Assembly: GCA_029258835.1 (NCBI GenBank)
Contig: JAPDJY010000035.1
Coordinates: forward strand, 77,302-141,301
Length of the DNA: 64,000 nucleotides
Source of the DNA: Thermoproteota archaeon
Lineage (GTDB): Archaea; Asgardarchaeota; Jordiarchaeia; Jordiarchaeales; Freyrarchaeaceae
Direction of reading: 5' to 3'
The position numbers were made by a program, and so were the translations under genes. Under the pieces are notes generated by a model, which made no database searches, was not told the origin of the DNA, and saw nothing but the letters and a program-made list of their open reading frames with translations. Below are positions 21,667 through 25,703 of the stretch, one piece after another (position 1 is the first letter of the stretch; the number at the start of each line of letters is the position of its first letter).

Positions 21667-23193
21667 TTACACGGAAGAAAGCGCGACTTTCAGTACTTTT
21701 TCCATTTCGCTTAGTTCTAAGTCGAAGGAGTAAAAACGCTCCATCAAAGCAAAGACATCGTCTGGGGGTTCTCCTTCCCTCTTAGCCCAGAGCGTTTTCC
21801 CCGCAGTTGAACGCATTACCTCCCCATTTTTGACTATAATTTCCCCGCCTTTTATAGTGTATGCTGTTTTGGATAGGGCTTTAACCAGGGCCTCATAGTC
21901 TTTACTTGGATCCGTACTCTCTGGGTTGAAGTCATACACTGCCACATCTGCTTCCGCGCCACGTGAGAGGTTTCCTTTCCCATTTAACCCTAAGGCCGCG
22001 GCTGGACTACACCTAGTTACCATGAACAATTCTTGTAAGGTGAGCTCTTGGTCTAACTGTGAGAGTTGCCCGTTCTTATCCATTTTTTCTCTTGCTTTTT
22101 TACTTACAAGCCACGCTGCTACAAGGGGGTAATCTGATGCTAACCCACAGTTTGGATGATTCACTGTTAATTGCACTTTTGAGAGATCTTTCACGTTGAG
22201 AAGTAGTTTAAGTCCTACTGCCCAAAGCTCACCCAGTTTTTCTCCTACTTTAATTAGGGTTGAAACGCCCTCTATTTCGATTTGATCCAGAAAACTTAGT
22301 CTTCCAAGATGAGCGTAGGCGAGATACGGGTCAGAAGACGTCATGATTTTTCCTGTTAACGTAGTCTGCCCTATCTCGGCCTCTATGTTCGAAGCTGAAT
22401 TTATGTACTTGGCGAGTTCCTCAGCTTTTTCTTCTTCCTCTCCGAACGTGTAGAGCTGTGCATGCGCCAAGTGTACTTTTCCAACTTCCCTTAACTTTTC
22501 TAACGTTCTAACTGCTTTTTCGTATCCTCCCTTCTGTAAGGCGCCATCTGGATGGATGTGGAGAGGGGACGGTAGGTTAAGGATTTGCGAGGCTTTCAAA
22601 ATGAACTCGGCATATTCCAAGGGACTTACTCCTAAATGTCTTATTTTTTCTTCCATTCCTTTCCACTCTCTTTTCCATGTCCAAGCCTCGGCGCTCAGCG
22701 GATTAACAAGTTTAATTCCATACGTTTTTGTTGTTCTTAGAAGCCATGCTATAGTGTCAGCGGCGGCTTTAACGTCTCCCTGCTGGGCGAGCGTTAACAG
22801 AAACCAGTTGGAGTCGAGGAGGAGTAGGCATGCTTTATCTAGTGAGTGGGCTTCTTGAAGCCAAAGGTGTGTGTGGAGAGCTCTTGAAAAGAATGTCCCG
22901 GACTCCACTATGAAGGTGTAACCATTCTTGAGGTATACTTCACCTGTTTCTCTTGGAAGAGGTACTTTTAAATTGATCATTTTAGCGAAACTTAACGTTT
23001 GCGCCGCTAAGTGGGTGTGGCAGTCTATCCCTCCAGGAACGACCATTTTCCCCTTTACATCTAAAACCTTGCTTTCCCTTTCGTCCACTTGATCCACGAT
23101 GAAGCCGTCCTTAATCATAATATCCATTTTTTCTCCTTCTATTCCGTTAAGCGGGTCAAAAACGAACCCGTTCTTCAATATTATTCCGCTCAT
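21667..23193 (-). CDS. fwdA: Formylmethanofuran dehydrogenase subunit A-like amidohydrolase (divergent)
   Basis: IILKNGFVFDPLNG, PGGIDCHTH, YGIKLVNP, HIH, HPN, GAEADVAVYD, YTIKGG. Confidence 0.8.
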   Translation of the reverse strand: MSGIILKNGFVFDPLNGIEGEKMDIMIKDGFIVDQVDERESKVLDVKGKMVVPGGIDCHTHLAAQTLSFAKMINLKVPLPRETGEVYLKNGYTFIVESGTFFSRALHTHLWLQEAHSLDKACLLLLDSNWFLLTLAQQGDVKAAADTIAWLLRTTKTYGIKLVNPLSAEAWTWKREWKGMEEKIRHLGVSPLEYAEFILKASQILNLPSPLHIHPDGALQKGGYEKAVRTLEKLREVGKVHLAHAQLYTFGEEEEKAEELAKYINSASNIEAEIGQTTLTGKIMTSSDPYLAYAHLGRLSFLDQIEIEGVSTLIKVGEKLGELWAVGLKLLLNVKDLSKVQLTVNHPNCGLASDYPLVAAWLVSKKAREKMDKNGQLSQLDQELTLQELFMVTRCSPAAALGLNGKGNLSRGAEADVAVYDFNPESTDPSKDYEALVKALSKTAYTIKGGEIIVKNGEVMRSTAGKTLWAKREGEPPDDVFALMERFYSFDLELSEMEKVLKVALSSV

Positions 23194-23612
23194 TCTCTAT
23201 TCCCTTCTACCTCTTCAATCATTTTCTTGATTTCTTCTAACGTAGTTACTTCACTACTGGTAACTTCCAACGTTGCCTTTACAAGATAGTAATGTTCTCC
23301 CCATGTAACCTGAATGTCCTTTTCGGAGATGGCATTAAACCATGGACCATTCGGCATAAGTGCTAATCCAGGTTTGGTTTCATCGCTTTCATATGCCTTA
23401 ACTACAACGTTCCCATGATCGGTTGTGACCTTAACCTTATCCCCATTTTTCACTCCATTCTTTCCCATGTCTTCCTTGCTTAGAAGGATAACTGCCGTGG
23501 TTTCAACATATCCTTCCATGCCTTTCTCTGCTTTCTCGATCGATTGCTCGACAGAGCGAACTCCACAAATGGTGACCTCAAATTTAGGAGCTAAAAGCCT
23601 GAGTAGCGACAT
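23190..23612 (-). CDS. fwdD: Formylmethanofuran dehydrogenase subunit D (molybdopterin dinucleotide-binding domain)
   Basis: RSVEQ, GDKVKVTTDHGNVVV, PGLALMPNGPWFN; overlaps the fwdA start. Confidence 0.8.
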   Translation of the reverse strand: MSLLRLLAPKFEVTICGVRSVEQSIEKAEKGMEGYVETTAVILLSKEDMGKNGVKNGDKVKVTTDHGNVVVKAYESDETKPGLALMPNGPWFNAISEKDIQVTWGEHYYLVKATLEVTSSEVTTLEEIKKMIEEVEGNRE

Positions 23613-23726
23613 TCTAAGACGCTCCTTTCATTCAGGCTATTTTAGGCAAGCTTAAAATAAAACTTTTACCGCTTTTAATCCTCGATAGTTAAAAGGGCCA
23701 TAATGTTTGCTGGAGGCGGGAGCATT

Positions 23727-24581
23727 GTGAAGGGATGGCTATTCGAAATCTTCTCCTCCTACCAATCCTTACTAAAATAAGGGGTGAAGGGGAGGGTGGA
23801 AGCGTAAAGGGGTCAAATTACGGGAAGCGGACGATATAGGCCATCCGAGGGGCCGTCGACTTATCCGCTTCTCGGGGTGTAACATATGGTTAGGAGAGTT
23901 TGGTAGGCGAGGGTGTGGGTGGTGCGACACCTTAAACGGCGCCAGACGCCCCACGCCGCTCAGCCTAAATCTGAATATTTGAAGATATCAACAGTTGAAG
24001 AAGGCATGTTTCAAGTGAAAAATCCCGTGGAGCCAGGACTAGTTGTAGAATACGTTAAACGTGTCCACTCACCAGATGTTCACGCGATTTCCCTGACAGG
24101 AGGGGAACCATTATTTCAACTAGAGTTCCTCGCTTCAATAATGAAAGCCCTTAAAGGGGAAGGATACAAAACATACTTGGAAACCAACGGTTCAATGCCG
24201 GAACGAATGGATAAAATAGCATTCTTAACAGACTATTGTTGCTGTGATATTAAAGATGAAACGGCAGGTGCAGCAGAAAACTGGAGACGGCTCGTTGAGC
24301 TGGAGCTAAAAACAATAAGTATACTTATAGATAATGGTGTCAGCGTCTTCGCTAAGGTTGTCGTTACTTCGGAGACGAAGCCTGAAAACGTTGAATGGTA
24401 TGCATCAAAGCTTTCAAGGATGGACTGCCCGCTATGTATTCAACCGGTAACGCCTATAAGGAATTATAGGCCGCCTTCACAACGCCAACTCTTCAGCTTC
24501 ACGGAGGCGGCAGCAAAACATCTTGGGAGCGATAATGTGGCCATATCTGTTCAAGTACACAAGTTTTTGGGTATACCTTAA
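23727..24581 (+). CDS. queE: 7-carboxy-7-deazaguanine synthase split by three BHB micro-introns; join(23727..23765,23789..23837,23861..23928,23946..24581), 263 aa
   Basis: GGAGG RBS at 23712-23716 and GTG at 23727. Spliced product MKGWLFEIFSSYQGEGGSVKGSNYGKRTIFIRFSGCNIWLGEFGRRGCGWCDTPHAAQ..., then SLTGGEPL, YLETNG, CDIK, CIQP, VQVHK. Operon with DUF366 and queD. Confidence 0.9.
23766..23788 (+). other. queE intron 1 (23 nt, BHB)
   Basis: Central helix TACC(23760-63)/GGTG(23783-86); bulges AA^T and AA^G; intron stem CCTTA/TAAGG; contains in-frame TAA; splice gives CAA|GGG = Q|G of SYQGEG. Confidence 0.88.
23838..23860 (+). other. queE intron 2 (23 nt, bulge-helix-loop variant)
   Basis: 11-bp exon helix CGGGAAGCGGA/TCCGCTTCTCG; central helix CGAT/GTCG; 5' bulge AT^A; 3' loop AC^TTA; intron stem GGCC/GGCC; splice gives T|TT = Phe of TIFIRFSGCN and removes a TAG. 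Confidence 0.88.
23929..23945 (+). other. queE intron 3 (17 nt, relaxed BHB)
   Basis: Exon helix GGTGTGGG/CCCACGCC; central helix TGCG/CGCC (3 of 4 pairs); bulges AC^A and AG^A; intron stem CC/GG; splice gives GAC|ACG = D|T of CGWCDT and restores frame. Junction could shift by 1-2 nt. Confidence 0.78.
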
Positions 24582-24595
24582 GGGGAGGCACCCAC

Positions 24596-25231
24596 TTGAA
24601 CTTGAAAAACTTGGAAGTAGTGGAACAGGCTCCTTTAACTGTGGCATTAGTTCCCTTTACTCATCATTTTCCATATACCGGAAGGGAAATAGCGCCGCTG
24701 TGGGCTCTGAAGACATTCGGCATACAGGGGGATTCCATAATCGTTTTCCGTGGTCCCCTTAGCGTTTTAGAGTCCGAACTCGTAGACGTGAAAGACCTTG
24801 TCTTTGAAGGAGGAAAAGGACGCCCTGTTATTTCGTCTAAGGATGCCATAAGCTTTATCATAGAACATTTTGATCAGCAACCACCATCTCTACGGCTAAT
24901 GTATCATAGACTTAGGATCATAGCGTTCCTTTTTAAGGAGCTTGCCGAGGAAAAATGCGGCTTAAGGCTTCAACGTGACGGTACAGACACATACTTTAAT
25001 GGAGGAAAACTTAACGTTGGGGTGGCAACAGTTTCCTCGGGATCCGGAAAAATCCATTTTGCAATAAACATTTCCGTTGAGGGAGCGCCTCCCGGAATCA
25101 AAGTAGCAAGCCTCCTAGACTTAGGCGTTAGCGAAGGTGAAGTCGAGTCGTTTGCTGTTTCCCTCGCTAAACGTTACAGGCGTGAGATACTAGACGTTGA
25201 GAGTGACGTTGCGAAATCTAAAACCTTCTAA
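24596..25231 (+). CDS. DUF366 family protein (lipoate-ligase-like; clusters with que genes)
   Basis: FGIQGDSIIVFRG, FIIEHFD, KLNVGVAT, KIHFAINI; lies between queE and queD. Confidence 0.8.
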   Translation: MNLKNLEVVEQAPLTVALVPFTHHFPYTGREIAPLWALKTFGIQGDSIIVFRGPLSVLESELVDVKDLVFEGGKGRPVISSKDAISFIIEHFDQQPPSLRLMYHRLRIIAFLFKELAEEKCGLRLQRDGTDTYFNGGKLNVGVATVSSGSGKIHFAINISVEGAPPGIKVASLLDLGVSEGEVESFAVSLAKRYRREILDVESDVAKSKTF

Positions 25232-25241
25232 GGGTGATAAG

Positions 25242-25703
25242 TTGCCCTACAGGCTTACGGTTGAAAGAGCAGACTTAACGTTTTCAGCTGCCCATTTCCT
25301 CCTCAAACATGAGAAGTGTGCCCGTTTACACGGTCATAACTATAAGGTTAGGGTGGAAGTTGCTTCCGACCTTTTAGATGGAAAACACATGGTGATCGAC
25401 TTCTTTTCCATAAGAGAGCTGGCTAGAAAGGCGTGCGAACCGTTGGATCATCGCGTTTTAATACCAGCTAAGTCTAATGAAATCTCGATTAAAGAATGTG
25501 AAAACGAGGTTGAAGTTGTTCTCACCGACCGGAGGTACGTTTTCCCCAGAAGCGATGTAGCGTTACTACCTTTAGAAGCCACAACTGTAGAAAAAATTGC
25601 TGAATATCTCTATGCGAAGATTAGGGAGAAGCTCCCGGAAGGTTTTAATCTTAAGGTCTCAGTAGAGGAAGCTGAAGGAGCTATAGCAACGTTTGAACTA
25701 TAA
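25242..25703 (+). CDS. queD: 6-carboxy-5,6,7,8-tetrahydropterin synthase (TTG start after GGGTGA RBS)
   Basis: FSAAHF, CARLHGHNY, MVIDF, LDH, TTVEKIA. Confidence 0.88.
   Translation: MPYRLTVERADLTFSAAHFLLKHEKCARLHGHNYKVRVEVASDLLDGKHMVIDFFSIRELARKACEPLDHRVLIPAKSNEISIKECENEVEVVLTDRRYVFPRSDVALLPLEATTVEKIAEYLYAKIREKLPEGFNLKVSVEEAEGAIATFEL

What the first reader, a model, noticed from the sequence alone, without database searches (positions are those of the whole stretch)
23751..23800. queE intron 1: near-canonical BHB placed inside the Q-G-E-G motif
TACC/GGTG central helix, AAT and AAG 3-nt bulges, CCTTA-CTAAAA-TAAGG intron hairpin, and pyrimidine/purine exon arms (CTCCTCC / GGGAGGG). Unspliced mRNA stops at TAA 23778 after 17 codons, so this intron alone blocks expression. 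It sits between Gln and Gly of the conserved SxQGEG motif.
Basis: seen in the sequence. Interest (0 to 1): 0.75.

Follow-up and report, generated by a model that had tools for sequence, protein, structure and literature searches.

The report
tRNA-type mini-intron in Asgard queE
A 23-base hairpin that breaks the start of a tRNA-modification gene (queE) in an uncultured Asgard archaeon has the shape cut by the tRNA-splicing enzyme, and related genomes show it is almost certainly spliced out of the mRNA, which papers report for only two other archaeal mRNAs.

Summary
Window 23753-23796 folds as exon arm / TACC:GGTG helix / AAT and AAG bulges / CCTTA-CTAAAA-TAAGG hairpin. Canonical cuts remove 23766-23788 (23 nt) and join TACCAA|GGGGAG, restoring SSYQ|GEGG.

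One fold is not significant (z -1.35), and BHB-like shapes occur about once per 29 nt in this genome. The comparative data decide it:
- All 11 species genomes held for the class (Jordarchaeia/Freyarchaeia), plus 7 further contigs, carry an insert at this codon boundary.
- Insert length is 20-31 nt.
- The central helix pairs in 100% of cells.
- All five hairpin pairs show compensatory changes.
- More distant homologs read QGEG without a break.

Two more BHB introns follow, at 23838-23860 and 23929-23945. Removing all three gives a 263-266 aa QueE-like ORF in every one of the 11 genomes. Substitutions in the small exons fall mainly on third codon positions.

The genome has two EndA paralogs and RtcB. 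I also confirmed similar inserts in rpl44e and cbf5.

No RNA data could be checked, so splicing is inferred. Earlier notes of this scan describe the same gene and other split genes in this genome. Verdict: a real mRNA BHB intron and a new member of a known but very rare kind.

The parts
23712..23716 (+). GGAGG Shine-Dalgarno-like site 10 nt before the start codon
   Evidence: Read directly from the sequence.
23727..23765 (+). Exon 1 (39 nt): GTG start, VKGWLFEIFSSYQ
   Evidence: It aligns with [MV]KGW..FSSYQ in all relatives. Two relatives have ATG at this codon.
23753..23759 (+). 5' strand of the outer (exon) helix, CTCCTCC
   Evidence: It pairs with 23790-23796 through G-U pairs and one C-A mismatch. 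Across 18 sequences 72% of cells are paired.
23760..23763 (+). Central 4-bp helix, exon strand TACC
   Evidence: It pairs with GGTG 23783-23786. All cells pair in 18 of 18 sequences, with U-A/U-G variation at one pair.
23764..23766 (+). 5' bulge AA|T; predicted cut after 23765
   Evidence: The three-base bulge appears in the single fold and in the RNAalifold consensus.
23766..23788 (+). Intron 1 (23 nt): hairpin CCTTA-CTAAAA-TAAGG, then GGTG and AA; it contains the in-frame TAA at 23778-23780
   Evidence: Removing it restores YQ|GEG. Homologous inserts are 20-31 nt in 18 sequences. All five hairpin pairs show changes on both sides.
23787..23789 (+). 3' bulge AA|G; predicted cut after 23788
   Evidence: The position follows from the BHB symmetry rule. 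Thermodynamic folds prefer another register for the exon arm.
23789..23837 (+). Exon 2 (49 nt): GEGGSVKGSNYGKRTI plus the first base of a Phe codon
   Evidence: It matches GEGSALKGSCYGKRQIF of intron-free homologs.
23838..23860 (+). Intron 2 (23 nt): central helix CGAT/GTCG, bulges AT|A and AC|T, hairpin GGCC/GGCC
   Evidence: Removing it gives GKRTIFIRFSGCN. Across relatives 88.5% of cells are paired and three pairs show changes on both sides.
23861..23928 (+). Exon 3 (68 nt): last two bases of the Phe codon, then IRFSGCNIWLGEFGRRGCGWCD (Cx11CxxC radical-SAM motif)
   Evidence: The same motif is contiguous in homologs.
23929..23945 (+). Intron 3 (17 nt): relaxed BHB with TGCG/CGCC, bulges AC|A and AG|A, and a 2-bp inner stem
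   Evidence: Removing it gives WCD|TPHA, matching WCD[ST]P.A in intron-free homologs. In the sister family the same site carries a canonical BHB of 27-30 nt.
23946..24581 (+). Exon 4 (636 nt including the stop): the rest of the QueE-like radical-SAM protein
   Evidence: Pfam Radical_SAM, E 1.7e-8. The spliced ORF is 263 aa.
24596..25228 (+). DUF366 gene (context)
   Evidence: Pfam PF04017, E 2.6e-51. The same neighbour is present in relatives.
25230..25700 (+). queD / PTPS-family gene (context)
   Evidence: TIGR03367, E 6e-23; PF01242.

Best explanation
Window 23766-23788 is a 23-nt archaeal bulge-helix-bulge intron in the pre-mRNA of the genome's only QueE-like gene. QueE is 7-carboxy-7-deazaguanine synthase, a step in the preQ0/archaeosine pathway.

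Proposed mechanism:
- The transcript folds so that exon bases TACC pair with intron bases GGTG.
- This helix is flanked by two 3-nt bulges and an intron hairpin.
- The tRNA-splicing endonuclease EndA cuts after the second base of each bulge.
- RtcB joins the exons, giving ...SSYQ|GEGG....
- Two further BHB introns, at 23838-23860 and 23929-23945, are removed in the same way.
- Only the triply spliced mRNA encodes the 263-aa enzyme.

What is shown: the motif, its exact placement, its conservation and covariation, ORF restoration, selection on the spliced frame, and the presence of EndA and RtcB genes.

What is inferred: that cleavage and ligation actually take place.

I think the intron is most likely a tolerated insertion in a lineage whose tRNA genes are crowded with such introns, rather than a queE-specific switch.
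For: 1. Anatomy. All BHB elements are at the stated coordinates. The central helix, 5' bulge and hairpin are also the minimum-energy fold and the RNAalifold consensus.

2. Junction. The canonical cuts restore FSSYQGEGG, as found in intron-free homologs.

3. Conservation. All 11 species genomes of the class have an insert at this codon boundary, as do 7 further contigs from public assemblies. Lengths are 20-31 nt and not multiples of three.

4. Covariation in 18 distinct sequences. The central helix is 100% paired. The hairpin is 98.9% paired and all 5 of its pairs change on both sides. None of 500 shuffles reaches the observed score, and slid registers fall to 54-69% paired (the 11-sequence set is).

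5. ORF restoration. Removing all three predicted introns gives open frames of 263-266 aa in all 11 genomes and 263 aa in the window.

6. Selection on the spliced frame. In the three small exons, between-family differences fall 345/271/883 on codon positions 1/2/3.

7. Outgroups. More distant homologs in other Asgard families, Hydrothermarchaeales and many metagenome contigs are uninterrupted.

8. Machinery. The genome has two EndA catalytic-domain paralogs and RtcB. Asgard EndA is reported as the broad-specificity (alpha-beta)2 type (PMC5829648).

9. Lineage. Close relatives are named Jordarchaeales or Freyarchaeota. In this group 92-95% of tRNA genes carry introns (PMC11291895; bioRxiv 10.64898/2026.10.13.758758).

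10. Same phenomenon elsewhere in this genome. rpl44e has a 29-nt insert and cbf5 a 27-nt insert, both BHB-shaped.
Against: - No transcript, junction read or cleavage assay was available.
- The single-sequence fold is not better than shuffles (z -1.35).
- BHB-like shapes are frequent by chance.
- The outer exon helix is weak: 72% of cells pair, and 3 of its 7 pairs are unpaired in most sequences.
- Thermodynamic folds put the 3' cut site in a 1x2 loop rather than a 3-nt bulge.
- The 11 genomes come from only two families, so the shuffle statistics overstate independence.
- My ORF-restoration scan of the genome showed no excess of BHB sites over random sites (3875 against 3790). It therefore gives no independent support.
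Confidence: 0.88

Rival explanations
1. The gene is a decaying pseudogene, or the inserts are assembly errors, and the BHB shape is coincidental.
For: The gene as written has stops and frameshifts. Public gene calls in relatives are N-terminally truncated, at 175-251 aa against 253-267 aa in intron-free homologs. BHB-like shapes are common by chance.
Against: - The same three sites are interrupted in 18 independent assemblies from two families.
- The small exons show a third-position excess of substitutions in the spliced frame.
- Stems keep pairing through compensatory changes.
- No other QueE candidate was found in the genome, while QueC, QueD and TGT are present.
Confidence: 0.03
2. The ribosome passes the inserts by translational bypassing or programmed frameshifting (as in T4 gene 60), and the RNA is never cut.
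For: A hairpin with a stop codon inside a coding gap resembles the gene 60 hop. Intron 3 is in frame and free of stops in two relatives (15 nt and 27 nt), so it could be read through there.
Against: - Take-off and landing codons do not match: CAA is followed by TCC, and GAA by GGG.
- Three successive hops of 15-31 nt, with lengths that vary between species, would be needed.
- What is conserved is the BHB geometry of a 4-bp helix and 3-nt bulges with the cuts at the exact junction, which bypassing does not require.
Confidence: 0.03
3. EndA cuts the BHB but the pieces are not rejoined, so the motif destroys or limits queE mRNA and no full-length protein is made from this locus.
For: Eukaryotic TSEN cleaves some mRNAs without ligation (PMC10485636). 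Three cuts within 180 nt would be an efficient kill switch.
Against: - Exact restoration of conserved motifs and of a 263-266 aa frame in all 11 genomes would be pointless without ligation.
- Purifying selection acts on the small exons in the spliced frame.
- RtcB is present.
Confidence: 0.04

Closest known systems
BHB intron in cbf5 pre-mRNA of Crenarchaeota (Desulfurococcales, Sulfolobales; PMC2738675, PMC10485636)
   Same: A short intron inside the coding region of an RNA-modification enzyme gene. It has a BHB-like, somewhat relaxed motif and interrupts an essential motif. [quoted passage not shown]
   Different: A different gene (queE), a different phylum (Asgard) and three introns in one gene with exons of 39, 49 and 68 nt. 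Splicing of cbf5 was shown experimentally; here it is inferred.
HVO_1309 mRNA of Haloferax volcanii (PMC7714728, summarised in PMC10485636)
   Same: [quoted passage not shown]
   Different: The review (PMC10485636) counts it as the second archaeal gene whose mRNA the endonuclease splices. I did not check where its BHB lies or whether removing it restores a reading frame.
Multiple non-canonical BHB introns in tRNA genes of Freyarchaeia/Jordarchaeia and Atabeyarchaeia (PMC11291895; bioRxiv 10.64898/2026.10.13.758758)
   Same: The same lineage, the same motif, the same size class, several introns per gene, and presumably the same enzymes.
   Different: The host RNA here is a protein-coding mRNA. 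Neither paper mentions mRNA introns.
HAC1/XBP1 unconventional mRNA splicing in eukaryotes (IRE1 cut, tRNA ligase/RtcB joining; PMC8718801 for XBP-1 and RtcB, PMC2965688 for HAC1 and tRNA ligase, otherwise own knowledge)
   Same: Spliceosome-independent removal of a short frame-shifting intron from an mRNA, with the exons joined by a tRNA ligase.
   Different: The nuclease is IRE1 rather than the tRNA endonuclease, the cut sites are stem-loops rather than a BHB, and the event is a regulated stress response.

Membership tests
Archaeal BHB (EndA-type) intron | Central helix of 4 base pairs | tested here: met
   TACC/GGTG. Four of four pairs in all 18 sequences, 100% of cells.
Archaeal BHB (EndA-type) intron | Two 3-nt bulges on opposite strands flanking the central helix | tested here: inconclusive
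   The 5' bulge (AAT) is predicted by every fold. The 3' bulge (AAG) needs the weaker register of the exon arm. The MFE and RNAalifold folds give a 1x2 loop instead.
Archaeal BHB (EndA-type) intron | Flanking helices h (exon) and h' (intron) | tested here: met
   h' has 5-9 bp, is 98.9% paired, and all 5 of its pairs covary. h is weak at 72% paired, though the pair next to the bulge is C-G in 18 of 18 sequences. This is at least an HBh' motif.
Archaeal BHB (EndA-type) intron | Cuts after the second bulge base give a functional product | tested here: met
   The junction restores SSYQGEGG. With introns 2 and 3 also removed, a 263-266 aa ORF results in all 11 genomes.
Archaeal BHB (EndA-type) intron | Host encodes the splicing endonuclease and RtcB ligase | tested here: met
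   Two PF01974 paralogs (105.7 and 82 bits) and one RtcB (606.9 bits).
Archaeal BHB (EndA-type) intron | Cleavage and ligation demonstrated on RNA | not testable with these tools
   No transcriptome or assay was available.
QueE (7-carboxy-7-deazaguanine synthase) | Score above a curated QueE family cut-off | tested here: not met
   For a full-length intron-free homolog the four best NCBIfam hits are QueE models, but they score 48-57 bits against cut-offs of 206-300. The window's exon 4 alone scores 21-32 bits.
QueE (7-carboxy-7-deazaguanine synthase) | Radical-SAM cysteine motif and N-terminal QGEG motif | tested here: met
   After splicing the protein has SSYQGEGG and Cx11CxxC. The best solved relative is the 7-carboxy-7-deazaguanine synthase of PDB entry 4NJG, E 7.5e-8.
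QueE (7-carboxy-7-deazaguanine synthase) | Pathway context | tested here: met
   queD lies two genes downstream. QueC and two TGT-family genes are elsewhere in the genome. No better QueE candidate was found. NCBI names homologs of 41-70% identity QueE.
Self-splicing group I/II intron or other known RNA family | Match to a curated RNA family | tested here: not met
   No Rfam match at E up to 1 in 23600-24100. At 23 nt the insert is far too small for a ribozyme.

The most novel reading that the evidence does not exclude
Jordarchaeia/Freyarchaeia may splice mRNAs routinely with the protein-only tRNA machinery (EndA plus RtcB). On this reading many ordinary genes, including multi-intron genes with exons under 70 nt, need splicing before translation. 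For queE, whose product feeds a tRNA modification, the three introns would also tie enzyme output to the cell's tRNA-splicing capacity.
Probability: 0.4. Interest if true: 0.9.

Novelty: new member of a known kind. Interest (0 to 1): 0.75.

Why it matters
A 2023 review counts two archaeal genes whose mRNA is spliced by the tRNA endonuclease, cbf5 and HVO_1309 (PMC10485636). The queE case adds several things:
- a new host gene;
- a new phylum, the Asgard archaea, the closest prokaryotic relatives of eukaryotes;
- the first case I could find of three such introns in one gene, with very small exons.

It has a practical consequence too. Gene callers annotate this QueE as a truncated protein of 175-251 aa that lacks the QGEG motif and often the radical-SAM cysteines. 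Metabolic reconstructions of these lineages can therefore miss or misjudge genes.

Together with the split rpl44e and cbf5 in the same genome, it makes testable the question of whether a protein-only mRNA splicing system operates widely in an Asgard lineage. Existing wetland metatranscriptomes of Freyarchaeia could answer it.

Tried and rejected
- **Genome-wide scan.** I looked for strict BHB shapes whose removal joins two open frames of at least 60 codons that are otherwise broken. This gave 3875 BHB sites against 3790 random control sites, with no excess in any length class. Background from gene junctions and chance open frames swamps the signal. The scan could not have found queE anyway, because its exons are too short. 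It says nothing either way.
- **Public genome search.** The related-loci scan of genome contigs did not return the close relatives (best hit 48% identity, Hydrothermarchaeales). It served only to supply intron-free outgroups.
- **Metagenome scan.** It added one close relative, whose queE 5' region translates identically to G002's in all three frames.
- **Intron 3 alignment.** The MAFFT alignment was not structurally consistent between the two families, so I counted its pairs by script instead.
- **An interrupted cysteine motif.** I first thought CNIWLGEFGRRGCGWC might itself be interrupted. Homologs show it is a native long-spacer radical-SAM motif.
- **A 2-nt frameshift after WCDT.** I first read site 3 this way. 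The BHB rule places a 17-nt intron there instead, which gives WCD|TPHA, and homologs agree.
- **The idea that all three introns are 3n+2.** This holds only in this genome. Lengths in relatives are 15-31 nt, and intron 3 is in frame and free of stops in two species.
- **Rfam.** No match.

Full report
**What is in the sequence**

The plus strand between 23712 and 24581 carries a QueE-like radical-SAM gene. It begins with a GGAGG site at 23712-23716 and a GTG start at 23727.

Read straight through, the frame gives VKGWLFEIFSSYQSLLK and stops at TAA 23778.

- CTCCTCC at 23753-23759
- TACC at 23760-23763
- AAT at 23764-23766
- CCTTA-CTAAAA-TAAGG at 23767-23782
- GGTG at 23783-23786
- AAG at 23787-23789
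- GGGAGGG at 23790-23796

The order is outer arm, central helix, bulge, intron hairpin, central helix, bulge, outer arm. This is the order found in pre-tRNAs, where the exon supplies the 5' strand of the central helix.

**Is it more than chance?**

A single fold does not show it. The minimum-energy structure contains the TACC/GGTG helix, the 3-nt AAU bulge and the hairpin. Its energy, however, is only 1.35 sd below shuffles.

A strict BHB shape is also common. It occurs 190,402 times in this 2.72 Mb genome, about once per 29 nt per strand, or 4.7e-4 per position and length. The motif alone therefore proves nothing.

**Comparative evidence**

The class that holds this genome has 11 species genomes in the collection, in two families. 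All 11 have the orthologous gene.

In every one the reading frame is broken at the same three places. More distant homologs are uninterrupted: three other Asgard families, a Hydrothermarchaeales MAG and about 20 metagenome contigs. They read EIFSS[YF]QGEG...GKRQIFIRF.GCN...C.WCD[ST]P.

I applied the tRNA rule, a cut after the second base of each bulge. At site 1 this removes 20-26 nt in the 11 genomes and joins CA[AG] to GGN, which restores YQ|GEG everywhere.

Seven more contigs from NCBI, Logan, JGI and ENA assemblies show the same insert, 20-31 nt long.

On 18 distinct sequences:
- The central helix is paired in 100% of cells.
- The intron hairpin is paired in 98.9% of cells, and all five of its pairs change on both sides. 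Examples are CCTTA/TAAGG, CTTCC/GGAAG, TCCCCC/GGGGGA and TCCCT/AGGGA.
- None of 500 shuffles reaches the observed covariation score.
- Sliding the partner by 1-3 columns drops pairing from 87.5% to 54-69%.

RNAalifold, given no structure, predicts the same central helix, 5' bulge and hairpin.

The weak part is the exon arm. It is constrained by coding, pairs in only 72% of cells, and thermodynamic folds prefer a shifted register. The 3' cut site is therefore canonical only in the weaker register. 'Near-canonical' is a fair description: a strong H-B-h' half and a relaxed other half.

**The rest of the gene**

Two more inserts follow.

| Feature | Intron 2 | Intron 3 |
|---|---|---|
| Window coordinates | 23838-23860 | 23929-23945 |
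| Length | 23 nt | 17 nt |
| Central helix | CGAT/GTCG | TGCG/CGCC |
| Bulges | AT\|A and AC\|T | AC\|A and AG\|A |
| Inner stem | GGCC/GGCC | 2 bp |
| Result of removal | GKRTI-F-IRFSGCN (splits a Phe codon) | WCD\|TPHA |
| In the sister family | hairpin of 6-10 bp | canonical BHB of 27-30 nt |

With all three removed, the window gives a 792-nt, 263-aa ORF. Each of the 11 genomes gives 263-266 aa.

In the 156 nt of exons 1-3, differences between the two families fall 345/271/883 on codon positions 1/2/3. The peak moves as expected when the frame is shifted. The spliced frame is therefore under purifying selection.

Intron lengths vary from 15 to 31 nt and are not multiples of three. Where intron 3 happens to be in frame and free of stops (two species), gene callers read through it.

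**What the gene is**

- Exon 4 alone hits Radical_SAM.
- A full-length intron-free homolog has QueE models as its four best NCBIfam hits, but far below their cut-offs (57 against 240 bits).
- Its best solved relative is the 7-carboxy-7-deazaguanine synthase of PDB entry 4NJG (E 7.5e-8).
- NCBI names homologs of 41-70% identity QueE.
- A DUF366 gene and queD follow it here and in relatives.
- QueC and two TGT-family genes are elsewhere in the genome.
- No better QueE candidate exists in the genome.

I call it the genome's QueE-like enzyme, probably the preQ0-pathway QueE. Membership in a curated QueE family by score is not met.

**Organism and machinery**

The closest database proteins are labelled Candidatus Jordarchaeales and Freyarchaeota/Freyrarchaeum. 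The only closed genome of the sister family is 3.6 Mb, matching the published 3.58 Mbp Freyarchaeia genome.

In this group 92-95% of tRNA genes carry introns, often several and at non-canonical positions (PMC11291895). A 2026 preprint ranks its two families first in intron load among Asgard archaea (10.64898/2026.10.13.758758). Neither paper mentions mRNA introns.

The genome has two EndA catalytic-domain paralogs, in ORFs of 190 and 308 aa, and RtcB. Asgard EndA is described as the (alpha-beta)2 type with the loop that confers broad specificity (PMC5829648).

**Not an isolated case**

Following leads from earlier notes of this scan, I checked two other genes in this genome myself.

- rpl44e matches its Pfam profile in two pieces, 26 nt apart. 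A 29-nt BHB (GCCC/GGGC, bulges AA|T and AA|A) joins them as QPK|PIQ.
- cbf5 carries a 27-nt BHB (CACT/GGTG, 8-bp hairpin) with two stops inside GTLEP..PKVTG. Removing it gives GTLDPKVTG, and the cut falls between the first and second base of the catalytic Asp codon. That is the same position reported for the crenarchaeal cbf5 intron (PMC2738675).

**Mechanism and rivals**

The best explanation is EndA cleavage at the two bulges followed by RtcB ligation (confidence 0.88). Cleavage and ligation are inferred; the rest is shown.

- A pseudogene is contradicted by conservation, selection and covariation.
- Ribosomal bypassing lacks matched take-off and landing codons. It would need three hops of variable length, and it does not explain the conserved BHB geometry.
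- Cleavage without ligation does not explain the exact restoration of the frame.

A queE-specific regulatory role, coupling archaeosine-precursor synthesis to splicing capacity, is possible. Nothing I tested supports it, and similar introns in unrelated genes argue for tolerated insertions.

**Novelty**

The searchable literature reports endonuclease-dependent splicing for two archaeal mRNAs, cbf5 and HVO_1309 (PMC10485636, PMC2738675, PMC7714728). My searches for queE, Asgard, Freyarchaeia or Jordarchaeia together with introns found nothing on mRNA introns.

This is a new member of a known kind. It stands out for its phylum, for three introns in one gene, and for exons of 39-68 nt.

Earlier notes of this scan had already described this gene and other split genes in the same genome.

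Noticed in passing
G000 contig C27:11929-11955 (outside the window): cbf5 carries a 27-nt BHB-shaped insert (CACT/GGTG, 8-bp hairpin, TAA and TGA inside). Removing it gives GTLDPKVTG. The cut lies between bases 1 and 2 of the catalytic Asp codon, the same position reported for the crenarchaeal cbf5 intron (PMC2738675).
   Followed up: partly
G000 contig C27:13051-13079 (outside the window): rpl44e (eL42) is split by a 29-nt BHB (GCCC/GGGC, bulges AA|T and AA|A). The Pfam profile matches in two pieces, positions 1-37 and 37-75.
   Followed up: partly
window 23907-24581 and relatives (P0002-P0018): Public gene calls for this QueE in Jordarchaeales and Freyarchaeota are 175-251 aa. They lack the QGEG motif and often the radical-SAM cysteines. 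Intron-free homologs are 253-267 aa.
   Followed up: partly
L003 (G002) and L008 (G009), intron 3: In two species intron 3 is in frame and has no stop (15 nt and 27 nt). An unspliced message there would only add 5-9 residues after the CxxC motif. Whether that protein would work is unknown.
   Followed up: no
window 24596-25228: A DUF366 gene sits between the QueE-like gene and queD here and in the Jordarchaeales relatives. In the Freyarchaeota-type contigs fetched (L188-L191), PTPS follows directly without DUF366. A link of DUF366 to 7-deazaguanine metabolism may be worth testing.
   Followed up: no
window 21667-23627, minus strand: FwdA-like (amidohydrolase) and FwdD-like (Molydop_binding) genes lie head to head with queE. 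This neighbour is conserved in all relatives fetched.
   Followed up: no
G000 contig C6:39796-40056: The second EndA paralog lies in a 308-aa ORF, longer than a typical alpha or beta subunit. I did not examine its extra region.
   Followed up: no
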